Source: an uncultured virus (IMG/VR IMGVR_UViG_3300035183_001042) (lineage: Duplodnaviria; Heunggongvirae; Uroviricota; Caudoviricetes). Taken from it: 20,000 bases of DNA. Shown piece by piece: positions 6,972 through 20,000 of the stretch. The first letter of the stretch is position 1. Every line of letters starts with the position of its first letter. Location: the IMG/VR virus record IMGVR_UViG_3300035183_001042. One strand, 5' to 3'. A model generated the notes under the pieces. It was not told where the DNA came from. It saw only the letters and a program-made list of their open reading frames with translations, and did not search any database. Position numbers and translations under genes: made by a program.

Positions 6972-6974
6972 AGA

Positions 6975-7334
6975 TTATCCGTCATCTCCGAACGTGTACG
7001 CAGCCATGCCCTCGAGCATCTCGAAGAACTCGGCGATGTGGACTGTTCCGCCCGATGTGAACTGAGGAGAAACCCATCTGTTGCCCTTATTTTGCTTCAC
7101 TCCGAGAAACCGAGCCGCTACGATCTCCGTCTGATGTGGAACGCTCTCTTTTACAGGGAATCGACGATAGATCCTCTTCACCACGTTCCAAGGATGAGAT
7201 CTGATCGCAAAGAAGACATGGTGTCCCCTCCTCCACGCAAGGACGTCATCGATCACGTCACCAAACTGGTGGCGCATGTACGCCATCAAACGAACCGAGA
7301 ACTCGATCGATACTGCGTCCAAGATCTTCTTCAT
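6975..7334 (-). CDS. hypothetical protein (first gene of the minus-strand train)
   Basis: 119 aa ORF ending 3 nt before the next start. Confidence 0.7.
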   Translation of the reverse strand: MKKILDAVSIEFSVRLMAYMRHQFGDVIDDVLAWRRGHHVFFAIRSHPWNVVKRIYRRFPVKESVPHQTEIVAARFLGVKQNKGNRWVSPQFTSGGTVHIAEFFEMLEGMAAYTFGDDG

Positions 7335-7383
7335 AGCATAGAGATCCTACCTCGATTCATCGCTGATGTCATCGGCGTTGCGC

Positions 7384-7413
7384 TTGACAGGCGCTGCGCC
7401 GCATGGCATCGAT
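7384..7413 (+). promoter_or_regulatory. possible sigma70-type promoter in the divergent intergenic gap
   Basis: Perfect TTGACA at 7384-7389, but only a poor -10 (CATCGA) at 17 nt spacing. Confidence 0.3.
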
Positions 7414-7456
7414 GCAAATGCTGAATCGCCGCAGTTAAGCACAAAGGAGCAATCTA

Positions 7457-8089
7457 ATGCGCCTGTTTCGCATCGAGTCAACGCCGGAATTTGACAACGT
7501 GATGCGGGAGTTCGACCCGAAGGAGCAATGGACCATCGACGTGATCGAATCCATGGCTGCTCGAGACGTCATGCCGACGAGTTGGTACGAACGGTACCTG
7601 GACAATCCGCCGGAGCGAAGAGAGCCTGATCTGATCGTCACTCTCTCTAGAAACGCTGCTCGGATGCTGGCTGCTGAGACGATCATGAAGAATCAGATCA
7701 CTGCGGCAGGCGTAGATCTATCTAGCTTTTTGGGCTTTGTCTCGAGGCGTTCACTGTCCTCTTTCAGAACGATCTCTCAGGAGATGGACCTAAACTTCTC
7801 CGTGCCTGACTCCTCGATGAAGAACAATCGAAGGGTGATCCCATGCCCGTCGATGAAAATCCTCTATGGGTGCGATCGGCATCTGCAGTTTTGTCGGTGG
7901 CTCAGCTTGTACGGGTACGACTGGCAAAAAGCGATCTGTGCGTCTGGTCTTTGTCCCGTGTACATTGGATCTTCGACCACGAAAGGCCCATGTGGGTGGG
8001 CTCTTGAGTGCGACACAGAGAACTGGGATGGGTACGACATGAGCGAATTCGACGCCGCCAATGGGGTCAAGATGCAACTCGAGCGATGA
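7457..8089 (+). CDS. hypothetical protein
   Basis: 210 aa ORF with a strong AAGGAG RBS just upstream of the ATG. Confidence 0.85.
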   Translation: MRLFRIESTPEFDNVMREFDPKEQWTIDVIESMAARDVMPTSWYERYLDNPPERREPDLIVTLSRNAARMLAAETIMKNQITAAGVDLSSFLGFVSRRSLSSFRTISQEMDLNFSVPDSSMKNNRRVIPCPSMKILYGCDRHLQFCRWLSLYGYDWQKAICASGLCPVYIGSSTTKGPCGWALECDTENWDGYDMSEFDAANGVKMQLER

Positions 8090-8097
8090 GGCAAACA

Positions 8098-8439
8098 ATG
8101 AGCGACAATCAGAATCCTCCGCAGATGCACGCGATCCTGCTTACGACGGGGATGATCTTGGTCGGGATCGTCATGGATGACGGGCGAGAGAGCGGCGAGA
8201 TGATCGTTATGAGTCCTTATGTTCTGCCTGCCACATCTACGATCGTGAGCGCCTTGAGAGAAAGAGATGTCGTCATCTCCTTGGCAAGGCTGATGGGGCT
8301 GCCTCCGGACCAGCCAATGCAGATCAACAGGGACCACGTCGTGCTGATGGTTCCGCATCCGTACGTCGAGAGGCGAAGCGGTCGCGTTCAGGAGCTGGGG
8401 GAAGACCGGCGTCAGGAACTGGGGGAAGACCGGCGGTAG
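8098..8439 (+). CDS. hypothetical protein, possible Sm/LSm-like beta-barrel
   Basis: GAGG RBS and ATG at 8098; pattern ILLTTGMILVG....MIVMSPY...MQINRDHVV resembles Sm-fold strands. Confidence 0.6.
   Translation: MSDNQNPPQMHAILLTTGMILVGIVMDDGRESGEMIVMSPYVLPATSTIVSALRERDVVISLARLMGLPPDQPMQINRDHVVLMVPHPYVERRSGRVQELGEDRRQELGEDRR
8388..8435 (+). repeat. 24-bp tandem duplication (QELGEDRR x2)
   Basis: TCAGGAGCTGGGGGAAGACCGGCG / TCAGGAACTGGGGGAAGACCGGCG, one mismatch. Confidence 0.95.
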
Positions 8440-8558
8440 ATCAGCGTTATGCATCATCGAATGAGCAACCGACGCTTGGTCAGCCTCGGGCGACCACAGG
8501 TAGAGTCCAACTCGGCCCATGCATCCGAAGAACAGGACCTTGGCAGTATCGGATCGAT

Positions 8559-8943
8559 TCAATTCTCGAGGCGTTCCGGCTCGTCGGCATCGTAGCCGAT
8601 CCAGCGAACAACGACCCCACCTTCTCTCTCGAGCTCGGCGACCACCTTCGGATGATTGTAGACGACTCTGTCGATTGGTTTCTGCTTCCACTTCGAGGTG
8701 CAGCCACTGTACCCGTATGCCTTTGACGGAAGCTATTTACGGGTGACACAAGCCTCTTCGAGAGAAATCCACTCTGTTCGCGGAGACACCTTCTCGAGCC
8801 ATGCCTTGACCTCTTGGATGCTCTCGTAGGTGTGAGGGAACTCCGCTCCGGTGTCGGCGAAGACGACGATGTCTGGCGCTCGCTGCTCCTTCACCGCCCG
8901 CAGGAGCAGCGCCGCCACTGTAGCTCTGAAACACCACTGTCAT
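8559..8943 (-). pseudogene. phosphoadenosine-phosphosulfate (PAPS) reductase / adenine nucleotide alpha-hydrolase family remnant
   Basis: MTVVFQSYSGG [frameshift; PP-loop xDS lost] AALL...VVFADTGAEFPHTY...SLEEACVTRK*LPSKAYGYSGCTSKWKQKPI...WIGYDADEPER; TAG at 8733-8735; C-terminus truncated. Confidence 0.85.
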
Positions 8944-9028
8944 GAACATCTCCTTCGCGTTGGACAATACAGCACGGTGATCCAAGAGGCCGAACAAGAA
9001 CAGCACGCGTCGGTCAAATTTCGAGACA

Positions 9029-9211
9029 TCACTTTCCGTCGAGTAGACGCGCAGCGAACGCTGCCGCCTTGGCTCCTCGTCCGATCCACCGTTGAACTCT
9101 CCGAGGCGACTTTCGGTAGACTTCGAGGACGGTCTTGGCTGCGATAGACTTCGCGAACGCGGCTGCTACGTGCAGGGCGAGCAGCGGCAAATTCTCTTCT
9201 TTCTTGGGCAT
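9029..9211 (-). CDS. small basic helical protein
   Basis: MPKKEENLPLLALHVAAAFAKSIAAKTVLEVYRK...LLDGK; the start is uncertain. Confidence 0.45.
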   Translation of the reverse strand: MPKKEENLPLLALHVAAAFAKSIAAKTVLEVYRKSPRRVQRWIGRGAKAAAFAARLLDGK

Positions 9212-9412
9212 AGCCCAAGAATCATAGCACCGGGAAGTGCTTCTTCGCGACGTTCTGGGCGCGCGCATCGATATCGCTGAATCTCTTCTTGTCTGTCTGA
9301 AGGAGTCGCTCGATGAGAGAAGATGCTGCAGAAGGTCTTCTCCACGAGCTTTGATCTCTGCTCTGTCTGTCCTTGTTATTTGGCCCTGGATACGCGCGAC
9401 GTGCTTCGGTGC

Positions 9413-10219
9413 TCACGGACGATGCTTGGATCTGGATGGATAGTCCATGTTCCACACTTCGCAGACCGCAGATGCCATGGCTCGAACTCCGTCGTTGAAC
9501 GAGACGTCGAGGCGGTGGTGGTCTCTGGATGCCATCGACCTGTGCCATCCGTCGGTGATTCTCCATCGGATCCATCGAACGGCTGCGGCCTCCATCGAGA
9601 GCGTGATGGGAGAGACCCAGTTTTCGCTACCGTTGAGTGCCATTCTCAGCCGACTGACGAGCTTGAGCAGATGGGTTCCACGCTGTCCCATTTCGCATTG
9701 GGAGAGAAGGTGTTCGTCTCCTTCTTGGTGGTTGGTCTCGGCGCGGAGAGGATCGATTTGGAATCCAGCCTCAGTGATGCTTCCTCGGTCTTCGATACGC
9801 CCGAAGACATCCTGCCATGGGCAGACGAAAGTTAGAGATCCTTGACGAATGATTTTGACCTTGCTGAGCGCGGTGTGCGCGGCCGACATGGTGAACTTTT
9901 TGTTCAGCTCGGGGCTGTACAGCCGCAGGATGTTCTCTTGCCTCTCAGCAGAGAAGTGGATCGGCTCGTCGATGAGCATGAGCAGGCGAACCTCGCCATG
10001 GTTGTCAGGCTTTGGCCTCACGGTGTCCGCATGCGACGTCTCAGAGAACGTCGCCCACCACATGGTCTCGATCGATGATTGGAGGGCCTCGCTCGCCCTG
10101 CACAGAGATTGAGCCGCGAACTTGCTCAGCCTCGAGTTGGTCTCTTCTGTGATCCGCGTCTGAATCCGCTTCGTCTTTCGGTCGCTCTCTGGGGTCGTCT
10201 TACCGCTTCTGCTGCTCAT
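9413..10219 (-). CDS. hypothetical protein with N-terminal ribbon-helix-helix-like DNA-binding domain
   Basis: AAGGAG RBS; KTKRIQTRITEETNSRLSKFAAQSLCRASEALQSSIE fits the RHH strand-helix-helix pattern. Confidence 0.7.
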   Translation of the reverse strand: MSSRSGKTTPESDRKTKRIQTRITEETNSRLSKFAAQSLCRASEALQSSIETMWWATFSETSHADTVRPKPDNHGEVRLLMLIDEPIHFSAERQENILRLYSPELNKKFTMSAAHTALSKVKIIRQGSLTFVCPWQDVFGRIEDRGSITEAGFQIDPLRAETNHQEGDEHLLSQCEMGQRGTHLLKLVSRLRMALNGSENWVSPITLSMEAAAVRWIRWRITDGWHRSMASRDHHRLDVSFNDGVRAMASAVCEVWNMDYPSRSKHRP

Positions 10220-10238
10220 GTGTCTTATCTCCTTCTCG

Positions 10239-10440
10239 TCATGGGCACTCCATGAGATCCATCGAGTCAGAACGCTCGACTTGCTTACCCATCAGCGCCG
10301 CGTACTCATTCGTGACGAATGAACTTTCGATCGACTCTTTGATCAGGTCAGACCGGAGCCTCCTACGCATTCTTGATGCTTAATCGTCATAATTCAAGGC
10401 TACTTCAGACCGTATACCAGCGCAAGTAAAAAGAGAACCA
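10239..10440 (-). pseudogene. possible small RHH-type regulator interrupted by TAA (10380-10382)
   Basis: ...AGIRSEVALNYDD*ASRMRRRLRSDLIKESIESSF... resembles CopG-type 'LDxLA....RSDLIREAI'; the start is not defined. Confidence 0.35.
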
Positions 10441-10908
10441 ACAAAAACACCAGGCGTTTCAGTAATGTAACCTACTGTCGTCGGCGTTGCTGGTTCTCGC
10501 TTGATTGTCTTTGCTCCCCTGAAGGTTCGGTGCAATGGCTTGGCGGTCACCAAACAAGATGGCACTCATGGACAGCGCTGACATTCCGAAGGTTTCTGTT
10601 GCGAAGATCCCGGCCGAGGCGGACGGACCCGACCAGTCCATGCTTCGTTTGATTGATCTGGTCAGATACAAGAACGATCCGGTGGCAGGACTCTTCGCTG
10701 GCTCGAACGGCCGACATCCGATCGTCTGGCGGTGGCGTCTGCGGTGCAGCGCAGTGATGCGAGCATCGTGTCGCACAAGACAGAAGCCCACACGCGCTCG
10801 CCGACCTTGCGCCTTCCCCCCACGGCATCTGCTTCGACATGGGGGCAGGTGGGGAGGGAGAGAGGCTACCGCCTTGAAGGCGACCATGGAAGATGGTTGT
10901 GATACACA

Positions 10909-12453
10909 GTGGTAGCCATGCCGATCAACAACAACAGACCTCCTCAGGCCGACAAGGTCAAAGCGATTCAGCGGCAATTCTACGGTGACTTGCCTCCTGC
11001 AAACCCAACTGAGGCGTTCGTTCTTGCCTGGGTCGAACAGCCACAGGGTCCGCATCCGGCTGGTCTGTATATGACGATCGTGACTACGCCGGGCGGTGCG
11101 CACCAGTGGGTGTGGATTGGTCCAGGCGGCGGTGGTCCAGGCCAGCAACTGCCAGATCTTCGATTCGTCGTGGCAAGGACTGGATACGGCGGTGGCACGC
11201 TCGGAGACATTGCTCCTGGTACGACGTACACCGATCCGGACCCGGCTGTGGCTTTCAACGCGGCGCTCGGCGCAGCGACGGTCTACCAAGCTGCGCTTCA
11301 GGCTTTGCCGGCATTCGCCGGACAAGAAGCGAAGTGCACGGTGATGCTTCATCCGGATCACTACGAAGGCCAGTTCGTGATCCCGTCGAGCGTGACCGTG
11401 GTGGGTCTTGGCGCGAATCCTTCCGATACGATCGTCGATAAACTGCTCTTCGCATTGGGCAACAACGTTTCCTCCGGCGCGAGGAATCTGTACCTCGCCG
11501 GCAGTGGCGCCCCGTCGCTGGCGATCGAAGTAGCGCCAGCTCCTGGGACGATCAGACTGCGGTTCGAACGAGTGGAGAGCGATCCGAACGCAGGCGTTGT
11601 CTTAACGCACGACGGATCAACGGAGTTCATCGAGTGCAAACTCGGAAGCACGACGGCGACATGCTTTTTGTCGTCTGATCTACTGTCTATTCGTACATCG
11701 TACACGAGATTGTCTACGGACAGAGTGAATCTGTCGTCGATGGAAGATCGTTTCATCGGGATCCCAGACGGTAATCCAGACCTCGTGATCAAGCTCGGCG
11801 ACTCTGTGATTCGAGACGCGCTGTTCGGGGATGTGCCGCCAGCGCCTCCCAAGCCGCTCTATGTTCGACTCGCTGGTGGTGCCAGTGTCTCGATGCTCAA
11901 CTGCTCGTTCCTGCAGCAGTCGACAGTGGGAGGATCTCTGATCGACGGGACGATCGGAGATCCGATTTCGACATTGTATGTGCGCGGGATCCTCTGTGCT
12001 GGACAGCACGATCTGTACGGTCCGCCATCAAGGCTGAGTATCTCACCTTTTGGAAACCACGAAGCCTCGCTGACTGAATCGCTCTCGGTTGTTGTGAACG
12101 CGCCAGGATTTTCCACGGCTCCAGTCTCAGGCGGTACTCCAGATATGATTGAAGTCAGCACGGTGTACGCGGTGCCTGTGTCGTCCGTGACCTACGTACT
12201 TCTCCCTCTTCCTGATGCGAATCGTCTGGCCCCTGGAAGGGACATTCTCGTGAAGAACACTTCGTCTCCGACCGATCCGACCGCAGGTCCGATCGCCCTT
12301 GTGACGACGCCTGGGCAGACCATCGACGGCTTGCCGAGTTCTCCGGTGCCAGCCAGCGTGACGAGCGCGACGCATGTAATCGTCGCTCCGGGGTCGCAAG
12401 TAACGGTTCGAGTCTCGCCTTCCAGAAATGGCTATCAGATCCGCGGTATCTGA
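10909..12453 (+). CDS. virion fibre/spike-like protein A (beta-helix entry motif plus C-terminal fibre-type beta domain)
   Basis: 514 aa, G/P/T/V-rich; TVMLHPDHYEGQFVIPSSVTVVGLGANPSDTIV (pectin-lyase-like start); C-terminal LPLPDA....GRDILVKNT...QTIDG...VAPGSQVTV. Confidence 0.7.
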   Translation: MVAMPINNNRPPQADKVKAIQRQFYGDLPPANPTEAFVLAWVEQPQGPHPAGLYMTIVTTPGGAHQWVWIGPGGGGPGQQLPDLRFVVARTGYGGGTLGDIAPGTTYTDPDPAVAFNAALGAATVYQAALQALPAFAGQEAKCTVMLHPDHYEGQFVIPSSVTVVGLGANPSDTIVDKLLFALGNNVSSGARNLYLAGSGAPSLAIEVAPAPGTIRLRFERVESDPNAGVVLTHDGSTEFIECKLGSTTATCFLSSDLLSIRTSYTRLSTDRVNLSSMEDRFIGIPDGNPDLVIKLGDSVIRDALFGDVPPAPPKPLYVRLAGGASVSMLNCSFLQQSTVGGSLIDGTIGDPISTLYVRGILCAGQHDLYGPPSRLSISPFGNHEASLTESLSVVVNAPGFSTAPVSGGTPDMIEVSTVYAVPVSSVTYVLLPLPDANRLAPGRDILVKNTSSPTDPTAGPIALVTTPGQTIDGLPSSPVPASVTSATHVIVAPGSQVTVRVSPSRNGYQIRGI

Positions 12454-12587
12454 GACTTTACTCATCGGTTGGGTCGTTTACAATCTTCACGACACTGAAG
12501 TCGGTGTTGGCGGATCTACATCATGGGTACGGCGCCTGACTTCTTGCTCTATTCTTTCATAACATTCTTCCCTTCAGGAGAGACTAG

Positions 12588-14303
12588 ATGGCAATCGTGC
12601 TTACTGACCAGAAGCTCCGCCAGATCACTGTCAACAACATCCTCGACGTGACTGGACCGAACAACGTGCCGCCATCCTCGTACGAGATCGGATGGCGTGC
12701 ACACGTCAAGACCGCGACGGTCGACAATGACCGCTACTTCACTGTGGTCATCGACAACACGACGAACGAGCACAAGTGGCTCGAACTCGTGACGAGCGCC
12801 TCTGCGTCATCGTTTCGCAAGCCTGACCAGCGCTTCACGGTGGGCCTCGCGGCGTACGACCTGCTTGAGCCTGGAACGGCGTCGTTCACGACGATTGCCG
12901 CTGGCATCACCGAGGCGGCGAACCCGGCAACGCCTGGAGTGACGCTAGGAGCAGCTTCGGCGATCTCGCGCCGCATGGTCGAGGTTGAGCCAGGTGAGTA
13001 CGCGGAGAACTTGACGCTGCAGTCGTTCGTTGGTCTTCGCGGCATGGGAGCCTCTCCGACGGAGACGGTCATCGTGCCTTCCGCAGGCACTGCGGTGGCG
13101 ATCAATGCCAACGCGGTCGATCAGGACTTCGTGATCGAGAACCTGACCATCGCCGGAGCGATCGACATCAACATCGCCGCGACCGCTCTCGGCGGAGGCG
13201 TGATCGTCCTTCGTGACGTGGTGTTCGACAACACGCGCGCGGTCCCTGCGTCGATCAACATAACGAGCAAGTCGCTGACGCCTCCGCAGATCGTGCTCGA
13301 GCGCTGCTGCGGGACGCTGTCAGCGTTTGCGGCAGCGAACACAGGATCGGTCTCGATTCGAATCACTGGGCGTCACGCGCCGGCGCAGTCTCCGGACAAC
13401 GGCGCAAACAACGGGCAGTTGCTCGTGCAGGCGCCGATCACGCTCGACTGCGCGGTGACCAACGAACTGTACATCGGGGACAACGCGATCGTGCGACGAA
13501 GCAGCGCCGGCGATTTGATCTCGGCCGTTCCGGCGAGCAACGGATCGTTCATCATCACACTCGACGACTCCTACCTCCATTGCGGCTCGAATGATTCGCT
13601 GGTGGTCTGTGGCAACACGGGGAACGGATTCGTGAGTATCTCGGGCGTGCATCTAGATGGCCAGCTGGAAACGCTGGTGACCGACAACGCGGTCTCGGGC
13701 AACGTCGTGGTAAACATCGAGAAGTGGCCGTTCTTGACCACTTCGCCGATGCCAGCAACTTCGCGTGCCTTCAGCGGCATCACGGGTGGTTCCCAGTCGA
13801 ACGCCTACTCTGGCAACGCGCTGCTCGCGAAGCACAACTACGGCACCTTCGTGGTCCCTGCGCCTGGACCCATTTGGAATGGGTTCTACGCGACGAACCT
13901 GCCGAACAGCCTCAATGGCTCGCCGTTCGACTTCACCAAGGACCTGCACACAGTGAACCCGGACTACGGCCCGGTCCTCAATATCGACCCTGACTCTGGC
14001 AACTCGACATTCCGCTACGCTCTCTTCCAGCTTCCGGAGCCGGAGGATCTCGAGGACGGCCGCAAGTACACGATCAAGAACACAGGCGATCCCTCGTCGG
14101 TGGCTCCGAACATCAGCGGGCCGATCGCGATCACGCTCCCAGCGGGCGGAACCTCGCGCATCGAGCACCTGAATTCGCGTCTCGCGGCGAACACGATCAT
14201 CACGTCGCAGAACTACTTCATCCTCGCGCCTGGTGACTCGGTGACGCTTGTCGTGGACCGCACGACGGATCCGACGACGCCGCAGTACCGCGTCGTCACC
14301 TGA
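12588..14303 (+). CDS. virion fibre/spike-like protein B, paralog of A
   Basis: 571 aa with AGGAG RBS; FTTIAAGI...VEVEPGEYAENLTLQSFVGLRGMGASPTETVI; C-terminal FQLPEP....GRKYTIKNT...ILAPGDSVTL. Confidence 0.75.
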   Translation: MAIVLTDQKLRQITVNNILDVTGPNNVPPSSYEIGWRAHVKTATVDNDRYFTVVIDNTTNEHKWLELVTSASASSFRKPDQRFTVGLAAYDLLEPGTASFTTIAAGITEAANPATPGVTLGAASAISRRMVEVEPGEYAENLTLQSFVGLRGMGASPTETVIVPSAGTAVAINANAVDQDFVIENLTIAGAIDINIAATALGGGVIVLRDVVFDNTRAVPASINITSKSLTPPQIVLERCCGTLSAFAAANTGSVSIRITGRHAPAQSPDNGANNGQLLVQAPITLDCAVTNELYIGDNAIVRRSSAGDLISAVPASNGSFIITLDDSYLHCGSNDSLVVCGNTGNGFVSISGVHLDGQLETLVTDNAVSGNVVVNIEKWPFLTTSPMPATSRAFSGITGGSQSNAYSGNALLAKHNYGTFVVPAPGPIWNGFYATNLPNSLNGSPFDFTKDLHTVNPDYGPVLNIDPDSGNSTFRYALFQLPEPEDLEDGRKYTIKNTGDPSSVAPNISGPIAITLPAGGTSRIEHLNSRLAANTIITSQNYFILAPGDSVTLVVDRTTDPTTPQYRVVT

Positions 14304-14384
14304 CCGAAGATCTGAAAAGCCTCTCACTCGGCCGTCAGGCCATGGAGAGGAGTTGTCGCCGACGGGACCATGGTGGGGCGTAAC

Positions 14385-14417
14385 AAAGCCTTGAATGGTT
14401 ACCACTTCAAGGCTTTT
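14385..14417 (+). terminator. intrinsic terminator-like hairpin, possibly bidirectional
   Basis: AAAGCCTTGAA (14385-14395) and TTCAAGGCTTT (14406-14416) form a perfect 11-bp inverted repeat ending in a T run, about 80 nt after the fibre gene B stop. Confidence 0.7.
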
Positions 14418-14462
14418 GTCGTTCTTTGGCCCCTTGAGCCGTCCCAGTGCAACCTGCGCAAT

Positions 14463-14858
14463 ATGGAACCGATGCGCTGGCTGAAGAAGGACGAACTTCA
14501 AGAGATGGTGACAGTTCTCCGGAAGCACGTCCCGCAGGGAGCAGTAACGGCCAAGCAAGCGCTGAAGATGATGACCGCCGCGTGTGGCGTGACCGACAGC
14601 GGTGGTTATCCGTCAGCGCTTTGGAAGCTTCAGGCCAACATTGTAGAGAACAGGCTGAAGAACCTGGAGAACTATGGTGGTGAGTCGGCTGAGTTTGAGT
14701 TGGCTCTCGTGGTTATCCACGGAGCGATGCGCGTATGGATCGCTCAACTGACAAGAGAAGAACTCGACGAGATCGGCGCCGAAGAATTTCTTCGCGATGC
14801 TCGCGCGGCATTCGATCGGCTGAGGGCCATCATGGACGTGGCATCATTCGCTTCATAA
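14463..14858 (+). CDS. hypothetical all-helical protein
   Basis: Part of ORF 14370-14858; the start is placed after the hairpin (MEPMRWLKKDELQEM...). Confidence 0.7.
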   Translation: MEPMRWLKKDELQEMVTVLRKHVPQGAVTAKQALKMMTAACGVTDSGGYPSALWKLQANIVENRLKNLENYGGESAEFELALVVIHGAMRVWIAQLTREELDEIGAEEFLRDARAAFDRLRAIMDVASFAS

Positions 14859-15113
14859 CGATGCGATGGTTCCATCGTCTTTTCTCTATCCGATCAAGTA
14901 CAACGTTTATCCAGTGAGGCTTTTCATGGCCAGATGTGCTCGTAGAATCGTCTGGCGCCAAGGCAAGCTCGCTATGTAGACGATCGACAGATACGTGCAG
15001 ATCCGAGATGTGATGGAGCATCTTCGGTTCTTGCTTGCGAGCTCTGGCTTCGCCACGCATCGGCCGGAACATACGAGCTCGTGTTCAAGAAAAGCCTGAG
15101 CCTTGGGTGCAGA

Positions 15114-16556
15114 TCACTCCCAATAGCCGTTGAACATGATGCCGTGCATGATGACGCCGCCCGTCCCAACTGTTCCGACCACGCGCTTGACGGCCTGGAT
15201 GAACTCTCCAGGCTGCACCAGGATTGGTGTTTGGAACGTGAACTCGATGTTGTCGAGCACGGTTCCAGCCGCAGCCGATGCTGGGGCTCCTTGCATGCCG
15301 ACGAAGACGCGCCTTGGGGCCTTCGAGGTCGCAGTCTCCGGAGTAGCAAGAGACACCGCAGTGTGTCCGAAGCAGATGGTCCAGAATGCGATGTTCGGGC
15401 CTCCGCTAAGCGCCGTCGTGACGGCTGAGCGAATCTTCACGCCCGTGATGTACAGGCTCTTGTTTGGCTGGTTCGCGGCGTACGCCGGGACTTGGTAGCT
15501 TGAGATGATTCCATCGGTATTCAGCGCGAGCGTGTTCGTCTCGAAGAACCATCCTCCAAGCCCGGTCCCTAGCGCTGCGGTCGTGTTCGTAGGCACCGCA
15601 CCAGCAGGGAGCGCCCCGCCAGTCGCGTTGACCAAGTTCGACGTCGATCCGATCGTGGCCTGCGTCTGTCCTTGGTAGCTGCCTCCTCCGTATCCGGCCA
15701 TGATGTGTTCATGAGCCTTTGTCCCGTGGTACTCGCCAAGCGAGACGCTCACAGCTCCAACACGCATCTGCTGCGGTGTTACTGGAGCGATCGCCTCGTT
15801 GTACTCCCGGAATGTCACAGGGAGAGCGGGCGAAGATGACATGGACCCTGACGCGGCAGGAAGCGGAAACGATGCAACGAGGACATCGTCGATCCAGAAC
15901 GTCGCACTAGAATTGTGAATCCCGATCAAGAATTTTCGAGTCGTAGACACGCCTACCAACGCGTTGAAGTTGATCGCTGGACTGGCTGTCTCCACGCCTC
16001 CGATGTTCAGGACGGCGACGAGTTGCCCCGCGCTTGTCAACCTGAAGAGCAGGCCGTCAGTTGGCGGGGCGGTGCCGGTAGCGATGAAGTATCCCCACTC
16101 GCACGTGTTGTTGACGACTGGGGCCGATGAGAACTGGACATTGCACTCGAACCAGAGAGTGAACGATCCCCACACCGGGAACGCTCTCCACGACGAGACG
16201 CGAGAGACCGCTCCCGCCGTGGTGAGGTTGGTGCTGTTCAGGTTCACCAATCCTCCAGCCAGAGCGATGGCGAAAGTCGTCGCTGGCGTCGTCCAGATGG
16301 TGTTGTTCACCGCGTTGGTAGGCCACGACTCACTGAGCATCAGCGTGTCGATGCCTGCGCGCATCCGGTAGTCCGCTGAGACTTCGAACGGAGCTCGATC
16401 TGGCACACCGGTGACAGTGCCATCGTCCCTCTCTCCCAACGCGATGGCGTATCCTGCCTCGTCGGTGTTCTTGGCCAGCGCGACCTTGGCCGCGTTGAAC
16501 GAGTCGATCTCGAGTGGATTCGGCGTTCCTATTCCGCTCTCCAACTGAAATGGCAT
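15114..16556 (-). CDS. virion structural / receptor-binding-like protein C (ConA-lectin-like beta-sandwich)
   Basis: 480 aa with AAGGAG RBS; all-beta, with DGLLFRL...LVAV...FLIGI.....TFWIDDVLVA typical of laminin-G/ConA folds; ends GYWE. Confidence 0.7.
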   Translation of the reverse strand: MPFQLESGIGTPNPLEIDSFNAAKVALAKNTDEAGYAIALGERDDGTVTGVPDRAPFEVSADYRMRAGIDTLMLSESWPTNAVNNTIWTTPATTFAIALAGGLVNLNSTNLTTAGAVSRVSSWRAFPVWGSFTLWFECNVQFSSAPVVNNTCEWGYFIATGTAPPTDGLLFRLTSAGQLVAVLNIGGVETASPAINFNALVGVSTTRKFLIGIHNSSATFWIDDVLVASFPLPAASGSMSSSPALPVTFREYNEAIAPVTPQQMRVGAVSVSLGEYHGTKAHEHIMAGYGGGSYQGQTQATIGSTSNLVNATGGALPAGAVPTNTTAALGTGLGGWFFETNTLALNTDGIISSYQVPAYAANQPNKSLYITGVKIRSAVTTALSGGPNIAFWTICFGHTAVSLATPETATSKAPRRVFVGMQGAPASAAAGTVLDNIEFTFQTPILVQPGEFIQAVKRVVGTVGTGGVIMHGIMFNGYWE

Positions 16557-16598
16557 GAGTCTCTCCTTGTTCCGAGGAAGAATTCAAAAGATGCTACG

Positions 16599-18038
16599 TC
16601 ACTCGAAGTATCCGTCGAAGGCAATGCCGTGCATTGTCGTGCCTCCGCTAGGGGCGGTCCCGGCCTTGCGCTTCACCGTTTGAATGAACTCTCCAGGCTC
16701 AACGATGATCGGCGTGTTGAACTTCGCGTAGACAGATCCAATCTTCGTCGTGGACGCAACTCCGGAAGGAACCCGCATCATTCCAACGAACTGTCTCCTC
16801 GCCGCCCTCGACGTAGCAGATCCTGCTGTGGCCAAAGAAACAGACGTGTGTCCAAAGCAGATCGTCCAGAAAGCAGTGTATCCACCGCCGGTAAACGATG
16901 AGATACAGAACGATTCAATGAGCACTCCGGTGATGTAGAGCGTCTTGTTGGAAGACAAAGCAGCAGACACTGGTACTTGGTAGCTTGAGATGATGCCGTC
17001 GATGTTCGCTGCGAGCGTCTCGTTCTCAAAGAACCATCCGCCCAATCCTGTCCCAAGGGCCGCGGTGGTGTTTGTCGGCACTGCCGCCGCAGGCAAAGCA
17101 CCTCCCGTGGAGTTCGTCAGGTTCGACGTCGACCCGGGAGCCGTAGGAGACTGATTCTGATAGGCGCCACTGCCCATGCCGGCCATGATGTGATCGTGAG
17201 CCTTGGTGCCATGATAGTCTCCAGCGGTGATGTTGATCGCTCCAACACGCATCTGCTGGACGTTGAGCGTCGCCGTCTGGTTGTACTCTCTGACAGAAAA
17301 AGGGAGAGAGTTCTCGATGCAAATCGCAGAGAACTGTGAGGCGAGCTCTATCGAGCCAACAAGGACATCGTCGACCCAGAAGGTCACGTTGCTGCGGTTG
17401 ACCCCAATGATGTAGTTCCTGGTCGTAAGAAACCCAACCTCCGAAGCGAAGTCGACGGGGTCGGTCTCCCTTTCTGCTCCGTCTCGAACAACGACGCCGC
17501 GGAGCCTCCCGTCAGAGCCGAGCCTGAAGAAGCAGCCGTAAGTTGGCTTCGCTGTTCCAGTCGCTGCGAAGAAGCCGAACTCACAAACGTTTCCACGAAC
17601 GGGAACCTGGGAGAACTGCAGGTTGATATCGGCCCAAAGGGTGAACCCTCCCCACATCGGGAAAGCTCTTCTCGTCGAGATCACGATCGACGCTCCGGCC
17701 GCTTGGTTGCTGCCGGAGTTCATGTTGACGATTTGGTTGTCAACGGCCAGCGTCATCGTCGTCGCGTTCGTCACCCATCGAGTCGAGTCGATTGCGGTGC
17801 CAGGAAACTGCTCGTTGAAGAGCAGCATGTCCAATCCAATTCTCAGTCTACCAAGAGGCGACACCTCGAACGCGGCTCTCGAAGGAGATCCGAAGATCGA
17901 GCCATTGTCTCGCTCGCCCAACGTGAGAGCGTACCCGGACTGCGCCTTGCTCTTGGCAAGCGCAGACTTCATCGAGTTGTTCGAGTCGATCTCGAGAAGC
18001 CGAGATGGACCTACTCCGTTGTCGACTTGGAAACCCAC
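16599..18038 (-). CDS. virion structural protein D, tandem paralog of C
   Basis: 479 aa, GAGG RBS and GTG start; colinear with C (GERD.G, TFW.DDVLV, QQMRVGA, YHGTKAH.HIMAG, VPTNTTAALGTGLGGWFFE, PGEFIQ.VKR, GY.E). Confidence 0.75.
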   Translation of the reverse strand: MGFQVDNGVGPSRLLEIDSNNSMKSALAKSKAQSGYALTLGERDNGSIFGSPSRAAFEVSPLGRLRIGLDMLLFNEQFPGTAIDSTRWVTNATTMTLAVDNQIVNMNSGSNQAAGASIVISTRRAFPMWGGFTLWADINLQFSQVPVRGNVCEFGFFAATGTAKPTYGCFFRLGSDGRLRGVVVRDGAERETDPVDFASEVGFLTTRNYIIGVNRSNVTFWVDDVLVGSIELASQFSAICIENSLPFSVREYNQTATLNVQQMRVGAINITAGDYHGTKAHDHIMAGMGSGAYQNQSPTAPGSTSNLTNSTGGALPAAAVPTNTTAALGTGLGGWFFENETLAANIDGIISSYQVPVSAALSSNKTLYITGVLIESFCISSFTGGGYTAFWTICFGHTSVSLATAGSATSRAARRQFVGMMRVPSGVASTTKIGSVYAKFNTPIIVEPGEFIQTVKRKAGTAPSGGTTMHGIAFDGYFE

Positions 18039-18046
18039 GTCCTACC

Positions 18047-18535
18047 TCACCCGTTACTCCAAGACCAAGAGACCATAAAGCGACCGCGAAACCCTGCCTG
18101 AGAACTCGCCTCGATCGTGAATCCTGTACCTGCGATGATGTCGCGAACGATCAGCCCCATCGCCGTCGCAGCCATGGAATGCTCATCGACGCTGTGCTCC
18201 GCCGTTGGACCAGGACCGAGTGTGAGCCGAACAGTCGCGTTCGAGGCGATTGCAGCCTGACCGGTCACCACCACAAGAGCGTTCTGCCGCTCTTTCCCAG
18301 ATCCGAAGTCGATGAGAGACGTGCCAGCGCCACCGAGCTCCGCGGGTCCGATCAGAATCCACCGATGAGCGCCGAACCCGGCATCGTACACGACCTCGAA
18401 GAGCCGCACGTTCGCGATGTCGATCGCTTGCGTTCCCACCTGAAGCGTCGCCGCAGGCAGCTGCAACTCTGGTGTATCAGCCAGAGTCATACCCGTAACG
18501 CGCCAGACTTTTCCTGCGAACTCACCGACAGCCAT
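18047..18535 (-). CDS. small virion-associated protein E, upstream partner of D/C
   Basis: Likely start MAVGEFAGK at 18535 (162 aa); IDFG...VVVTGQAAI...TAEHSVDEH...IIAGTGFTI...G.F.VSWSW resembles uncharacterised phage proteins. Confidence 0.7.
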   Translation of the reverse strand: MAVGEFAGKVWRVTGMTLADTPELQLPAATLQVGTQAIDIANVRLFEVVYDAGFGAHRWILIGPAELGGAGTSLIDFGSGKERQNALVVVTGQAAIASNATVRLTLGPGPTAEHSVDEHSMAATAMGLIVRDIIAGTGFTIEASSQAGFRGRFMVSWSWSNG

Positions 18536-18649
18536 CCAGATGATTCTACTTGGAGTCAATCGATTTTGTCTACGGCGACGACACGGACAAGTAAGCACTG
18601 ACGCGCATGTTTTTTGCGGTGATCGAAGCCAGTGGTAAGCACTGGCAAC

Positions 18650-19123
18650 ATGAGAAGCTACGCTGACTGCGATGTCTGTACGTCGAGCCAAAGCCACAAC
18701 CCTGGCGAGAAGCGCTCGCCATGCGATGACTGCATAGAAAGGTACAAGAGGGACTCTGAAAAGAGCCGCAAGTTCCTGCTAGGCAGATACGTGGAGATCA
18801 ACGGAGAAGCATCTTTGCCGAGGGCTGCGGTTGCCGAGGAGTTCTGGAAGACATGGGAGTCGATTGCCTCGATCGACTCGACGTTCGGATTTTTTGAACA
18901 CGAGGGTAACCCGTGCTTCTTGCTCTCCGCCCGCGGAGGAACGACGACGAGGGAAGTCATCGTCACCGTCACCGACGAGGGGATCACGATGGCGGGGAGA
19001 GCGAACCGACGAGACGCTCCTACAACCATTCGCTTCCGAGACAAACGAGCGCTCGACAAAGACTTTCTCCGCTACGTGGAGAACTGGATCTTCCGAACCG
19101 ACGCCGTCCGCTTCGGACATTGA
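18650..19123 (+). CDS. hypothetical protein with N-terminal CxxC...CxxC zinc ribbon
   Basis: MRSYADCDVC...PCDDCIERY...; natural composition; divergent from the structural cluster. Confidence 0.7.
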   Translation: MRSYADCDVCTSSQSHNPGEKRSPCDDCIERYKRDSEKSRKFLLGRYVEINGEASLPRAAVAEEFWKTWESIASIDSTFGFFEHEGNPCFLLSARGGTTTREVIVTVTDEGITMAGRANRRDAPTTIRFRDKRALDKDFLRYVENWIFRTDAVRFGH

Positions 19124-19434: not shown

Positions 19435-19588
19435 TCACCTCCACAGCCTTCTGCACAGCGCATCGATCACGCTGCACACGGCGCAAGTCTGCGAGCTGTA
19501 CGCGGGATCGACTTTGACCACGCGGCACCAGGTTGCGACGCCTGTACTTGAGCAGTTCCACGATGCTGCCTGCGTCTCGACCGAGTCC
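19435..19588 (-). pseudogene. tnpB: TnpB C-terminal remnant (late RuvC region plus zinc ribbon), frameshifted and cut by IS110
   Basis: GLGRDAGSIVELLKY in one frame, then RVVKVDPAYSSQTCAVCSVID in another; matches TnpB 'LNRSILDAGW..F...L.YK....V.VDP.YTSQ.C..CG'. Confidence 0.8.
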
Positions 19589-19624
19589 GCCATGCGCCTT
19601 CGGCACGCCCTGATGGAGGAAACG

Positions 19625-19800
19625 GTGGCAGAGTCGTGGGCTACTGTCGGCACGGAGGTCGCGTTCTCCTTGGTGCGGAGAGCCCGTTACTGAGTCTGAC
19701 CGGAGGCCCCACGAGCACCCTGAATTGTTGCCATGAGCCTGACCCGTGAGGGACGGGCTCGGGAGCACGCTTGGTAGAGTTCGATGACGGGGCCTCACGC
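19625..19800 (+). ncRNA. putative IS110 bridge RNA
   Basis: Two stem/internal-loop/hairpin units: GTTCTCC/GGAGAGC hairpin (19663-19683); GAGGCCCC (19703-19710) pairs with GGGGCCTC (19789-19796) and encloses the CCCGT/ACGGG hairpin (19743-19757). Loop arms match the junction. Confidence 0.65.
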
Positions 19801-19825
19801 CGACGACAGCACTTGGAGGTGACCG

Positions 19826-20000
19826 ATGAAGGTGCTGCATGCGCGGTGTGCAGGTCTGGACGTTCACAAGGAACTGGTCGTGGCGTGCGCCCGGCTCCAG
19901 CACGGCGCGAAGGTGCAACGCGAGCAGCGTCGCTTCGACACGACGACGAAGGGCCTGCTCGAGCTCTTGGCGTGGCTCGAGGAGCTGGGGTGCACGCACG
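19826..20000 (+). CDS. IS110-family transposase/recombinase, N-terminal DEDD RuvC-like domain (partial)
   Basis: GGAGGT RBS at 19815-19820; MKVLHARCAGLDVHKELVVACARLQHGAKVQREQRRFDTTTKGLLELLAWLEELGCTH carries the GLDVHK signature. Absent from the ORF track because it lacks a stop in the window. Confidence 0.95.
   Translation, partial: MKVLHARCAGLDVHKELVVACARLQHGAKVQREQRRFDTTTKGLLELLAWLEELGCTH

What the first reader, a model, noticed from the sequence alone, without database searches (positions are those of the whole stretch)
19583..19825. Readable bridge-RNA-like structure with guide arms matching the IS110's own junction
Seen: the non-coding left end folds into two large internal loops. In loop 2 (closed by GAGGCCCC/GGGGCCTC, capped by CCTGACCCGT/ACGGGCTCGGG), the left side GCCATGAGCCT (19730-19740) matches the junction GCCATGCGCCT (19589-19599) at 10/11. 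The right arm CGCTTGG (19768-19774) matches the reverse complement of CCATGCG at 6/7. In loop 1 the left arm GAGGTCGC (19655-19662) matches the left flank GAGTCCGC (19583-19590) at only 6/8. Known: IS110 recombinases use a bridge RNA with target- and donor-binding loops. Inference: this is an RNA-guided recombinase with a core near GCC/CC and a predicted right end finishing ...ATTGTTG, possibly a new target/donor specificity.
Basis: partly seen in the sequence, partly recalled or inferred. Interest (0 to 1): 0.8.

Follow-up and report, generated by a model that had tools for sequence, protein, structure and literature searches.

The report
IS110 bridge RNA with mirrored guides

Summary
Window 19586-20000 is the left end of an IS110-family element: about 240 nt of non-coding DNA, then the start of a recombinase of about 408 aa. 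The guide assignments are wrong.

I compared 62 related left ends, then checked the result on 61 further loci. That places the guides as follows:
- **Core:** AG at 19584-85, so the element starts at T19586.
- **Left-target guide:** 19688-96, made of 5 variable nt, then AG, then 2 nt copying the element's first bases.
- **Left-donor guide:** 19771-77. It predicts a right end of ...GTTTC-TTGGT-AG, not ...ATTGTTG(CC).
- **Right-target guide:** a weaker guide ending in CU at 19664-70.

Both loops carry the same-sense "left" guide on the 3' strand. That is the reverse of IS621 (published) and of ISEc21 (checked here). It matches the published order in IS1111-type seekRNAs, yet the RNA sits upstream of the gene.

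A second copy of the same element in another metagenome has the flank TACTG-AG, a 5/5 match to the guide. The window's own flank matches only 3/5.

Verdict: a real bridge RNA, a member of a widespread family, with a mirrored layout that is modestly novel.

The parts
19435..19585 (-). Remnant of a TnpB (IS200/IS605-type) gene, C-terminal part, frameshifted. The IS110 element is inserted into it.
   Evidence: Pfam PF07282 Cas12f1-like TNB domain, E 6.2e-06, on ORF 19435-19653(-) residues 43-71. The reading frame on the minus strand begins at the core (by reading).
19579..19583 (+). Left target (LT), the 5 nt before the core: GACCG. It matches the guide at 19688-92 (UACUG) at only 3/5.
   Evidence: The window scored below the family norm.
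19584..19585 (+). Left copy of the AG core dinucleotide (CT on the opposite strand).
   Evidence: - AG is invariant in both same-sense guides in the 62-sequence alignment A4.
- AG lies at both junctions in 52 loci with both ends found.
- A single AG lies between right end and left end where L050 and L034 are followed by their own left-end start.
- Assembly unitigs of the repeat start at 19583.
19586..19825 (+). Non-coding left end (LE) of the IS110-family element, encoding the bridge RNA.
   Evidence: Homology among the window, L003 and L004 starts here. It aligns with 61 other left ends.
19589..19612 (+). LE-terminal GCCA motif plus a small hairpin. Function not established.
   Evidence: Conserved as TxGCCAY plus hairpin in A4. 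Its similarity to 19730-40 is mostly a family motif.
19619..19623 (+). Conserved GAAAC, an inverted repeat of the conserved GTTTC found 5 nt before the core at the right end.
   Evidence: Mean complementarity 0.88 between these columns and right-end positions -10..-5 in 48 loci. In the Variovorax element L001 the repeat is 9 bp, read by eye. No covariation shown.
19644..19649 (+). 5' strand of the long-range stem P1. It pairs with 19804-19809 and encloses both loops.
   Evidence: Recovered by single-sequence folding. The family helix has 5 of 5 pairs with double changes, up to 24 sequences at one pair. The alignment register for the window is shifted by about 2 nt.
19657..19660 (+). Outer stem of the target-binding loop: GGUC pairs with GACC at 19698-19701.
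   Evidence: 100% paired in 62 sequences, with 2 compensatory double changes.
19664..19670 (+). 5' strand of the target-binding loop, acting as the right-target guide. C19669 and U19670 face the AG core. Positions 19668, 19667 and 19666 face the first three bases of the right flank, which are predicted to be GAG.
   Evidence: Fraction complementary to the right flank, own pairing vs permuted:
- Position 1: 0.66 vs 0.29.
- Position 2: 0.43 vs 0.25.
- Position 3: 0.47 vs 0.27.

Mean matches over 7 positions were 2.78 vs 1.84 +/- 0.14, reached by 0 of 500 permutations (58 loci). The second set was weaker: 2.19 vs 1.70 +/- 0.13, 0 of 1000 (48 pairs). L086 is a perfect 7/7 plus core.
19671..19686 (+). 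Inner stem-loop of the target-binding loop: UGG-U-GC pairs with GCCCG.
   Evidence: 98.4% paired, with 3 double changes at one pair.
19688..19696 (+). 3' strand of the target-binding loop, the left-target guide. It reads UACUG (copy of LT -5..-1), then AG (core), then UC (copy of the element's first two bases, in the handshake-guide position).
   Evidence: **Guide vs left flank**
- A 9-mer (6 nt + AG + T) matched the flank at 8/9 or better in 56 of 68 loci. Only 1.6% of permuted pairings did so.
- The narrower 8-mer (5 nt + AG + T) matched 8/8 in 47 of 61 independent loci. None of the permuted pairings did.

**Two bases after AG**
- The second base after AG equals the element's second base in 36 of 37 loci (0.54 expected) and in 25 of 26 (0.65 expected).

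**Second copy of this element**
- A copy in run X3 has the flank ...ACGTACT+G-AG, a 5/5 match to the guide.
19703..19710 (+). It pairs with 19789-19796.
   Evidence: 97.6% paired. The six pairs carry 24, 23, 7, 26, 9 and 3 double changes.
19722..19726 (+). Putative right-donor guide on the 5' strand of the donor loop. A19724, Y19725 and U19726 face the donor's AG+T. This is the weakest part of the model.
   Evidence: Mean complementarity (wobble allowed) 0.81 to donor positions -1..+4 in 48 loci. The positions are conserved, so there is no covariation.
19726..19731 (+). Inner helix of the donor loop: UGU-x-GC pairs with GC-ACG at 19765-19769. It has the same design as the inner stem of the target loop.
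   Evidence: 97.1% paired. One pair changes U-A to C-G in 5 sequences.
19735..19760 (+). Cap hairpin of the donor loop: 19735-39 pairs with 19756-60, and the stem is longer in the window.
   Evidence: 5 of 5 pairs have double changes. Also recovered.
19771..19779 (+). 3' strand of the donor loop, the left-donor guide. It reads UUGGU (copy of the last 5 nt of the right end), then AG (core), then AG.
   Evidence: - An 8-mer (6 nt + AG) matched the DNA after the stop codon at 7/8 or better in 57 of 62 loci. About 10.6% of permuted pairings did so.
- 8/8 matches: 30 of 62 loci, against 0.8% of permuted pairings.
- The narrower 7-mer (5 nt + AG) matched 7/7 in 39 of 61 independent loci, against 0.7% permuted.
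- L004 carries the identical guide and ends ...GTTTCTTGGT-AG.
19815..19819 (+). GGAGG, the likely ribosome-binding site of the recombinase gene.
   Evidence: Read. GGAG is conserved at this place in A4.
19826..20000 (+). Start of the IS110-family recombinase gene (58 codons). It runs off the window.
   Evidence: ORF listing. Relatives at 83-95% identity are 399-408 aa with Pfam PF01548 + PF02371.

Best explanation
Window 19586-20000 is the left end of an IS110-family insertion sequence. Relatives are about 1.47-1.58 kb, and this copy sits inside a decayed TnpB gene.

**What the left end encodes**
The 240-nt non-coding left end encodes a bridge RNA. A long-range stem (19644-49/19804-09) encloses two internal loops of the same design.

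- **Target-binding loop (19657-19701).** Its 3' strand (19688-96) copies the 5 bases left of the insertion point, the AG core, and the first 2 bases of the element. [quoted passage not shown] Its 5' strand ends in CU and is complementary to AG plus the first bases of the right flank.
- **Donor-binding loop (19703-19796).** Its 3' strand (19771-77) copies the last 5 bases of the right end plus AG. Its 5' strand offers only a short A-Y-U opposite AG+T.

**Inferred mechanism**
By inference, recombination between the circular form (right end-AG-left end) and a target (LT-AG-RT) happens at the AG/CT dinucleotide, as in IS621.

**How the layout differs from the studied examples**
In IS621 and ISEc21 the same-sense 'left' guides lie on the 5' strand of each loop. 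Here they lie on the 3' strand. Read on the opposite DNA strand, the RNA looks canonical: core CT, a 5' guide, then a 3' guide of 5 nt + core + a 2-nt handshake. So the polarity of the recombination site relative to the RNA and recombinase genes is flipped.

**Shown and inferred**
- Shown: the structure, and the covariation of guides with flanks and ends.
- Inferred: RNA expression, binding by the recombinase, and the chemistry.
For: **Family membership**
- The window holds 58 N-terminal residues. Relatives of 399-408 aa carry PF01548 + PF02371.

**Structure**
- RNAalifold on 62 left ends predicted the loops.
- 88.1% of cells form pairs, against 78.9% in shuffles.
- 223 cells show double changes, against 73 in shuffles. 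No shuffle of 500 reached this.
- Versions with the 3' partner slid by 1-3 columns pair at only 28-44%.

**Left-target guide**
- 56 of 68 loci match at 8/9 or better, against 1.6% of permuted pairings.
- 47 of 61 loci match 8/8 in a separate genome set, against 0.0% permuted.

**Left-donor guide**
- 57 of 62 loci match at 7/8 or better.
- 39 of 61 loci match 7/7, against 0.7% permuted.

**Handshake-like extension**
- 36 of 37 and 25 of 26 loci match at the second base after AG. Sites were located without using that base.

**Right-target guide**
- Significant but weak.

**Core**
- A single AG lies between right end and left end where L050 and L034 are followed by their own left-end start.

**Control for guide order**
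- The same scan on ISEc21 found the same-sense left guides 5' of the complementary right guides, at bp 102-109 before 125-135 and at 194-204 before 219-226.
- This agrees with the published order (PMC11187229 passages; PMC11208160 passages).

**This very element**
- The repeat boundary lies at 19583.
- IS depth is 197-280 against flank depth 10.9-21.
- A second copy has a flank matching the guide 5/5.
Against: - The right end of this copy lies outside the window, so its donor match and right flank could not be seen.
- The window's own left flank matches its guide at only 3/5 variable positions.
- The right-target guide signal is weak. In the second set the mean was 2.19 vs 1.70 matches of 7, and many loci match at only 0-2 positions.
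- The right-donor guide rests on 3-5 conserved bases without covariation.
- No sigma-70-type promoter was found at the L050 junction (0 found).
- No RNA reads were examined: the runs laid were DNA contigs, so expression is unshown.
- Junctions were located with the guides themselves. The MI table is therefore partly circular; the permutation tests are the valid statistic.
- IS621 itself was not analysed here. Its layout is taken from the papers.
Confidence: 0.82

Rival explanations
1. This is an IS621-like bridge RNA in which 19730-40 and 19768-74 are the left and right donor arms pairing with the element's own left junction, and 19655-62 is the left target arm. The core is GCC/CC and the right end finishes ...ATTGTTG.
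For: The matches exist: 10/11, 6/7 and 6/8. The close relative L003 has an 11/11 same-sense match between its left-end start and its loop-2 5' side.
Against: - GAGGTCG is nearly invariant while flanks differ.
- The RD-like similarity does not track the locus: 7.05 own vs 6.84 +/- 0.09 permuted.
- G19730 and C19731 pair with 19765-66 in a helix that is 97% conserved and has compensatory changes.
- The right ends of L003 and L004 finish GTTTCTTGTT-AG and GTTTCTTGGT-AG, not ATTGTYG.
- 19771-77 co-varies with the right end in the same sense.
Confidence: 0.03
2. The structured leader is only a cis-regulatory 5' UTR of the recombinase mRNA, for example translational control. It is not a guide RNA.
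For: It lies directly upstream of the start codon. The 3' strand of P1 ends 6 nt before the GGAGG site. Expression as a separate RNA is unshown.
Against: A UTR model does not explain why two unpaired segments copy the flanking DNA and the far end of the element locus by locus, in 56 of 68 and 57 of 62 loci. It also does not explain why a second copy of this element sits at a site matching the guide 5/5.
Confidence: 0.05
3. The layout is not really 'mirrored'. The true primary guides are canonical, with left guides on the 5' strands, and the same-sense 3'-strand matches are secondary features.
For: The 5' strands exist and end in CU or YU. In ISEc21 an extra complementary donor match was also seen outside the expected loop, at bp 61-73, 11/13 (counted by eye). 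This shows that extra matches can occur.
Against: - No same-sense match of either 5' strand to LT or LD appeared in the runs analysis. The only same-sense runs at 0.72 or above for LT and LD map to 19687-96 and 19769-78.
- The 5' strand of the target loop is complementary to the RIGHT flank.
- The ISEc21 control shows that the method finds the canonical order when it is present.
Confidence: 0.08

Closest known systems
IS621 bridge RNA (IS110 group). Durrant et al. 2024, PMC11208160; Hiraizumi et al. 2024, PMC11208158. I read passages only.
   Same: - The RNA is encoded in the left end, upstream of a DEDD recombinase gene.
- The target loop comes first and the donor loop second.
- Each loop binds both DNA strands around a shared 2-nt core.
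- The core is CT/AG.
- One guide per loop has the format 5 nt + core + 2 nt, like IS621's RTG (positions 10-14) + core + handshake guide.
   Different: - In IS621 the 8-9-nt same-sense left guides are on the 5' strand of each loop. Here they are on the 3' strand.
- The core therefore reads AG on the coding strand.
- The recombinase is about 408 aa rather than 326 aa.
- Natural right-flank matches are weak.
- No promoter across the junction was found.
ISEc21 seekRNA (IS110 type). Siddiquee et al. 2024, PMC11187229; passages read. The locus was re-analysed here as L083.
   Same: The non-coding region is upstream of the transposase gene. Short segments match both strands of the target. It inserts into a conserved part of another IS's transposase gene, as the window copy does into a TnpB remnant.
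   Different: In ISEc21 the same-sense left-flank match (bp 102-109) precedes the complementary right-flank match (bp 125-135), and likewise for the donor. In this family the order is the reverse.
IS1111-type seekRNAs / bridge RNAs (ISEc11, ISPa11 and others). PMC11187229 passages.
   Same: [quoted passage not shown] That is the order found here.
   Different: - IS1111-type RNAs lie downstream of the transposase gene.
- Their transposases are 330-350 aa.
- They have 7-17-bp subterminal inverted repeats.
- Here the RNA is upstream and the protein is about 408 aa. Only a GTTTC/GAAAC repeat was seen.
- No IS1111 element could be analysed here. The one accession tried was not held.
Actinobacterial IS110-like elements, the branch that the seekRNA paper says holds IS110 itself (transposases of 395-455 aa).
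   Same: A Streptomyces plasmid element is 48% identical in protein (H17). It shows GAGCACG-A-GTATC-AG in its leader, matching its right end TTTTC-GTATC-AG. The layout therefore seems shared.
   Different: Only one such element was looked at, by eye. Other motifs (GAGGTCG, GTTTC) are not conserved there.

Membership tests
IS110-family bridge-RNA system | Adjacent DEDD (RuvC-like, PF01548) + Tnp (PF02371) recombinase | tested here: met
   The window holds only 58 N-terminal residues. 83-95% identical relatives of 399-408 aa carry both domains. Alignment A1 keeps D12, E62 and other invariant residues.
IS110-family bridge-RNA system | Structured RNA in a non-coding end with two internal loops | tested here: met
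   Consensus fold and pair counts on 62 sequences. The structure was better than all 500 shuffles on all five measures.
IS110-family bridge-RNA system | One loop co-varies with the target flanks and the other with the element's ends | tested here: met
   The left guides are strong, the right-target guide is weak, and the right-donor guide is conserved only.
IS110-family bridge-RNA system | A shared core dinucleotide included in the guides and present at both junctions | tested here: met
   - AG is invariant in both 3'-strand guides.
- The opposing dinucleotide on the 5' strand of the target loop is complementary to the core at 81% and 72% of loci for its two bases.
- A single AG lies between right end and left end in L050 and L034.
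IS110-family bridge-RNA system | Handshake guide: 2 nt next to a guide that match the non-cognate DNA | tested here: met
   - **Target loop, second base after AG:** matches the element's second base in 36 of 37 and 25 of 26 loci.
- **Target loop, first base after AG:** T in nearly all loci.
- **Donor loop:** the two bases after AG were compared with the right flank only by eye. No match was evident (listing), and no such column pair was among the top MI pairs.
IS110-family bridge-RNA system | RNA is transcribed, binds the recombinase and is needed for recombination | not testable with these tools
   Only DNA contigs were laid.
IS621 / ISEc21-type layout (IS110 type as described) | Same-sense left guides on the 5' strand of each loop, complementary right guides on the 3' strand | tested here: not met
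   Here the same-sense guides are at 19688-96 and 19771-77, on the 3' strands. The ISEc21 control gives the canonical order with the same method.
IS1111-type seekRNA / bridge RNA | Non-coding RNA region downstream of the transposase gene | tested here: not met
   The RNA lies upstream. The right ends are mostly short: the guide match lies within 63 nt of the stop codon in most loci and up to 99 nt in a few.
IS1111-type seekRNA / bridge RNA | Top-strand complement precedes bottom-strand match | tested here: met
   19664-70 (complement of the right flank) precedes 19688-96 (same sense as the left flank). The definition comes from PMC11187229 passages.
IS1111-type seekRNA / bridge RNA | Subterminal inverted repeats of 7-17 bp | tested here: inconclusive
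   Only a conserved GTTTC (right end, -10..-6) and GAAAC (left end, about +34) repeat was seen. It is placed asymmetrically and shows no covariation.

The most novel reading that the evidence does not exclude
The roughly 400-aa branch of IS110 elements may use a third arrangement of the bridge system, beside the two described. This branch runs from soil Planctomycetota, Acidobacteriota and Proteobacteria to a Streptomyces plasmid.

- The RNA gene sits upstream of the recombinase gene, as in the IS110 type.
- The recombination site has the opposite polarity, as in the IS1111 type.
- Specificity in nature rests mainly on one 9-nt guide per loop, of 5 nt + core + 2 nt.

Many left flanks look like right ends of related elements (...TTTC-NNNNN-AG). 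The layout may therefore favour insertion beside resident copies and the building of tandem arrays.
Probability: 0.45. Interest if true: 0.55.

Novelty: new variant of a known kind. Interest (0 to 1): 0.42.

Why it matters
Bridge recombinases are being developed as programmable genome-writing tools. All mechanistic work I saw rests on IS621-like or ISEc21-like RNAs.

A large, natural family keeps the same modules but puts them on the opposite strands of the loops. It also appears to rely on a 5+2+2-nt guide. Studying it would show which features of the RNA layout the enzyme really needs, and it would give differently programmable orthologues.

For genome annotation, the result gives a simple rule for finding the exact ends and target sites of these common soil-bacterial elements. 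The 5 nt before AG in two leader segments equal the left flank and the right end.

For this window in particular, the finding is otherwise ordinary: one slightly diverged copy of a multi-copy IS inside a dead TnpB gene.

Tried and rejected
**Searches that found nothing or were not possible**
- No whole genome is held for the window.
- An exact 45-mer of the leader was absent from the viral, genome and metagenome contig collections. The window's own continuation could therefore not be fetched.
- Rfam found nothing in the window at E up to 10. It also found nothing at E up to 1 on ISEc21, L003 or L001, so Rfam is uninformative here.
- Phage records gave no DNA match.
- The promoter scan of the right end-left end junction of L050 found 0 sites.
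- ISEc11, the intended IS1111 control, was not in the collection.
- Earlier-findings look-ups gave one unrelated IS110 note and no relatives.

**Hypotheses tested and dropped**
- A helix between the 5' side of loop 2 (19720-23) and the left-donor guide is only 52% paired, so I rejected it. A complementary MI signal had suggested it.
- PHROGs gave no hit for the seven large ORFs at 5916-19123 that were scanned. Pfam gave nothing significant for the six of them that were scanned. A weak Bbp16 hit (E 0.05) is below cut-off.

**Sequencing runs**
- Runs X3 and X5 (hot-spring metagenomes) cover only the IS part.
- Several 34-nt look-alikes of 19588-19621 in other contexts were not followed.

**Literature**
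- Searches for a description of the mirrored order in left-end-encoded RNAs and passages of nine papers found none.
- Figures and bioRxiv supplements were not visible. [quoted passage not shown] S12 of 10.64898/2026.10.21.760802.
Full report
**1. What is at the site**

The + strand carries an ORF from 19826 (MKVLHARCAGLDVHKE...) that runs off the window end. A protein search with its 58 residues found 138 relatives. The closest are 83-95% identical, 399-408 aa long, and carry Pfam PF01548 + PF02371, the IS110-family recombinase architecture.

No whole genome is held for the window. An exact 45-mer of the leader is absent from the three contig collections. The right part of this copy therefore could not be read. 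Everything about its right end below is a prediction from relatives.

**2. Checking the observation**

The closing stem (19703-10/19789-96) and the cap hairpin of 'loop 2' are recovered by folding. They are strongly supported by covariation. So the fold is broadly right. Whether the named arms are guides had to be tested on relatives.

**3. Relatives and element ends**

A metagenome scan gave 80 loci. Two are close: L003 at 89% and L004 at 82% protein identity.

- Homology among the window, L003 and L004 begins at ...AG|TC(C)GCCAT.
- Downstream homology ends at GTTTCTTGTT-AG in L003 and GTTTCTTGGT-AG in L004.

By eye, two unpaired leader segments copy the left flank and the right end. I then tested this on all loci.

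**4. Left-target guide**

The query was a 9-mer: the 6 nt after the conserved GAGCCCG, then AG, then T.

- It matches the DNA 230-270 nt upstream of the start codon at 8/9 or better in 56 of 68 loci, and 9/9 in 15.
- Only 1.6% of permuted pairings do as well.
- The first of the six positions usually does not match: 13 of 37 and 3 of 26. The guide is therefore 5 nt + AG.

I then located sites with 5 nt + AG only and looked at what follows.

- The next base is T in nearly all loci.
- The second base equals the element's second base in 36 of 37 loci (0.54 expected) and in 25 of 26 (0.65 expected).
- The third base does not match beyond chance.

In window coordinates the guide reads UACUG-AG-UC at 19688-96.

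**5. Left-donor guide**

The query was an 8-mer: the 6 nt after GAGCACG, then AG.

- It matches the DNA after the stop codon at 7/8 or better in 57 of 62 loci, and 8/8 in 30.
- In permuted pairings 8/8 occurs at 0.8%.
- The right-end consensus is GTTTC-NNNNN-AG.
- In window coordinates the guide reads UUGGU-AG at 19771-77. It is identical to L004's guide, whose right end is ...GTTTCTTGGT-AG.

With both ends found, 52 elements measure mostly 1467-1583 nt. The truncated Burkholderia element L002 and L006 are shorter. In L050 and L034 the right flank is the element's own left-end start. This gives right end-AG-left end with a single AG between them. The core is therefore AG, which is CT on the other strand.

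**6. Replication**

A separate scan of species-representative genomes gave 75 loci. They come from Planctomycetota, Acidobacteriota, Alpha-, Beta- and Deltaproteobacteria, Gemmatimonadota, Chloroflexota and others. Of these, 61 aligned cleanly.

- The left-target 8-mer matched 8/8 in 47 loci, against 0.0% of permuted pairings.
- The left-donor 7-mer matched 7/7 in 39 loci, against 0.7% of permuted pairings.

**7. Right guides**

The 5' strand of loop 1 ends in CU just before the conserved UGGUGC.

- **First set (58 loci):** its complement matches the first three right-flank bases at 0.66, 0.43 and 0.47. Permuted pairings give 0.29, 0.25 and 0.27. Over 7 positions the mean is 2.78 against 1.84 +/- 0.14, reached by 0 of 500 permutations.
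- **Second set (48 pairs):** the signal is weaker, 2.19 against 1.70 +/- 0.13, reached by 0 of 1000 permutations.
- **Individual loci:** L086 matches 7/7 plus core.

For the donor loop only a conserved A-Y-U opposite AG+T (19724-26, perhaps from 19722) could be proposed. This is the weakest part of the model.

**8. Structure**

RNAalifold was run on 62 left ends (A4), followed by a pair count with controls.

- 88.1% of cells are paired, against 78.9% in shuffles.
- 223 cells show double changes, against 73 in shuffles.
- No shuffle of 500 reached the observed value on any of the five measures.
- Structures with the 3' partner slid by 1-3 columns pair at 28-44%.

The helices are:

- a long-range stem enclosing everything;
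- the outer stem of the target loop, GGUC/GACC;
- the inner stem of the target loop, UGG-U-GC/GCCCG;
- the outer stem of the donor loop;
- an inner stem of the donor loop of the same design, UGU-x-GC/GC-ACG, 97% paired, with five U-A to C-G double changes;
- a variable cap hairpin.

The two loops are thus built alike: [right guide + CU/YU] - inner stem - GAGC(C/A)CG - N - [5-nt left guide] - AG - 2 nt.

**9.

- **19655-62:** contains the invariant GGUC of the outer stem.
- **19730-40:** begins in the donor loop's inner helix and runs into the cap hairpin.
- **Similarity of 19730-40 to the left-end start:** mostly a family motif. Own pairs score 7.05 of 11 and permuted pairs 6.84 +/- 0.09. It is unusually high in the window's close relatives (L003 11/11), which I cannot explain.
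- **19768-74:** overlaps the left-donor guide.
- **19684-93:** overlaps the left-target guide, not a right-flank arm.

**10. Order of the guides**

- **IS621 (published), right guide:** it binds positions 10-14 and the core, followed by a 2-nt handshake guide for the non-cognate DNA.
- **seekRNA paper:** the order of the two strand matches is reversed between IS1111-type and IS110-type (ISEc21) RNAs.

As a control I fetched ISEc21 by the published coordinates and scanned it with the same conventions.

- The same-sense left-flank match (bp 102-109) precedes the complementary right-flank match (bp 125-135).
- The same-sense right-end match (bp 194-204) precedes the complementary left-end match (bp 219-226).

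So the method returns the canonical order where it exists. In the present family the order is the opposite in both loops.

Read on the other DNA strand, this RNA is canonical in format: core CT, a 5' guide ending in CU, and a 3' guide of 5 nt + core + 2-nt handshake. What differs is the polarity of the site relative to the RNA and recombinase genes.

The order equals that reported for IS1111-type RNAs. The RNA nevertheless lies upstream of a gene for a protein of about 408 aa. The seekRNA paper assigns that size to the branch holding IS110 itself. One Streptomyces plasmid element, 48% identical in protein, shows the same GAGCACG-N-(5 nt)-AG copy of its right end.

**11. This copy in its community**

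Two microbial-mat runs hold the flank and the IS. Laying contigs gave the following.

- The flank contigs (depth 10.9 and 21) stop at 19637, inside the IS.
- The IS part has depth 197-280.
- Short unitigs begin at 19583, which is G-AG plus the element. This fits a multi-copy element whose sites share G-AG.
- A 1576-nt contig of a hot-spring run carries the same element behind a different flank ending ...ACGTACT, then G-AG. Its five bases before the core are TACTG, a 5/5 match to 19688-92.
- The window's own flank (GACCG) matches 3/5.
- The window copy differs from the high-depth copies at seven substitution sites and two one-base insertions. Five of the seven are window A against G.

This copy is therefore a slightly diverged copy at an imperfect site. 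A 2026 preprint describes half-match insertions for IS621 (abstract read only), which may be relevant.

**12. Surroundings**

The element interrupts the C-terminal part of a frameshifted TnpB gene on the minus strand (PF07282, E 6.2e-06). On that strand the TnpB frame resumes at the CT of the core. Elsewhere the window holds a tyrosine integrase (2948-3964, minus strand; PHROG integrase, E 2e-30) and several large ORFs without family matches.

**13. Novelty**

Bridge RNAs of IS110 elements are known. Large surveys exist: 85.7% of ISfinder IS110s in PMC11208160, and 86 covariance models over 32,190 loci in a 2026 preprint (section read). This family has very probably been captured by them.

In four literature searches and in the text I read from nine papers, I found no statement that a left-end-encoded bridge RNA has the mirrored guide order. 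Figures and preprint supplements were not visible and may show it.

I therefore file this as a new variant of a known kind, with moderate interest.

Noticed in passing
window 19435-19585 (-): Frameshifted C-terminal remnant of a TnpB (IS200/IS605-type) gene, with a Cas12f1-like TNB domain hit. The IS110 element interrupts it, so one mobile element sits inside the relic of another.
   Followed up: partly
window 2948-3964 (-): A 338-aa tyrosine integrase (PHROG phrog_1, E 2e-30). The window may be part of a prophage or integrative element.
   Followed up: no
window 10909-18697: Five large ORFs of 216-571 aa (10909-12453+, 12588-14303+, 15114-16556-, 16599-18038-, 18047-18697-) have no significant Pfam or PHROG match. 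The only hit is a sub-threshold Bbp16 match on 18047-18697.
   Followed up: no
L001 (Variovorax paradoxus plasmid NZ_CP138516.1) 2420-5232: Two copies of a related element lie in tandem, 1488 bp apart. They are separated by 12 bp + AG that repeat the left target. The record has 4-5 matching places.
   Followed up: partly
L050 and L034 right junctions; L148 likewise, seen by eye in the listing: The right end is followed, after a single AG, by the same element's left-end start. This is either a head-to-tail tandem or an assembled circle junction.
   Followed up: partly
left flanks of many loci, e.g. L038, L125, L117, L138, L094, L109: The 10-12 nt left of the insertion often read (G)TTTC-NNNNN-AG, like a right end of a related element. 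A C at position -6 is common in both targets and donors (24 of 37 and 15 of 26 targets). This suggests insertion beside resident copies or a protein-read motif.
   Followed up: partly
window 19619-19623 and the right ends of relatives: A conserved GAAAC in the left end is the inverted repeat of GTTTC just inside the right end. The repeat is 9 bp in the Variovorax element, read by eye. It may be a short subterminal inverted repeat, placed asymmetrically.
   Followed up: partly
window 19588-19621: A 34-nt stretch of the left-end start occurs in four runs inside other contigs (650-1130 nt, depth 5-27) with unrelated sequence on both sides.
   Followed up: no
L083 (ISEc21) NCR bp 61-73: ISEc21 has an extra 11/13 match (counted by eye) complementary to its own donor junction, upstream of its target loop, besides the expected right-donor guide at bp 219-226.
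   Followed up: no
window 19643, 19747, 19785, 19803, 19806, 19873: The window copy differs from the high-depth copies in the same runs. In five of seven substitutions the window has A where they have G. Three of these lie in or beside the long-range stem.
   Followed up: no
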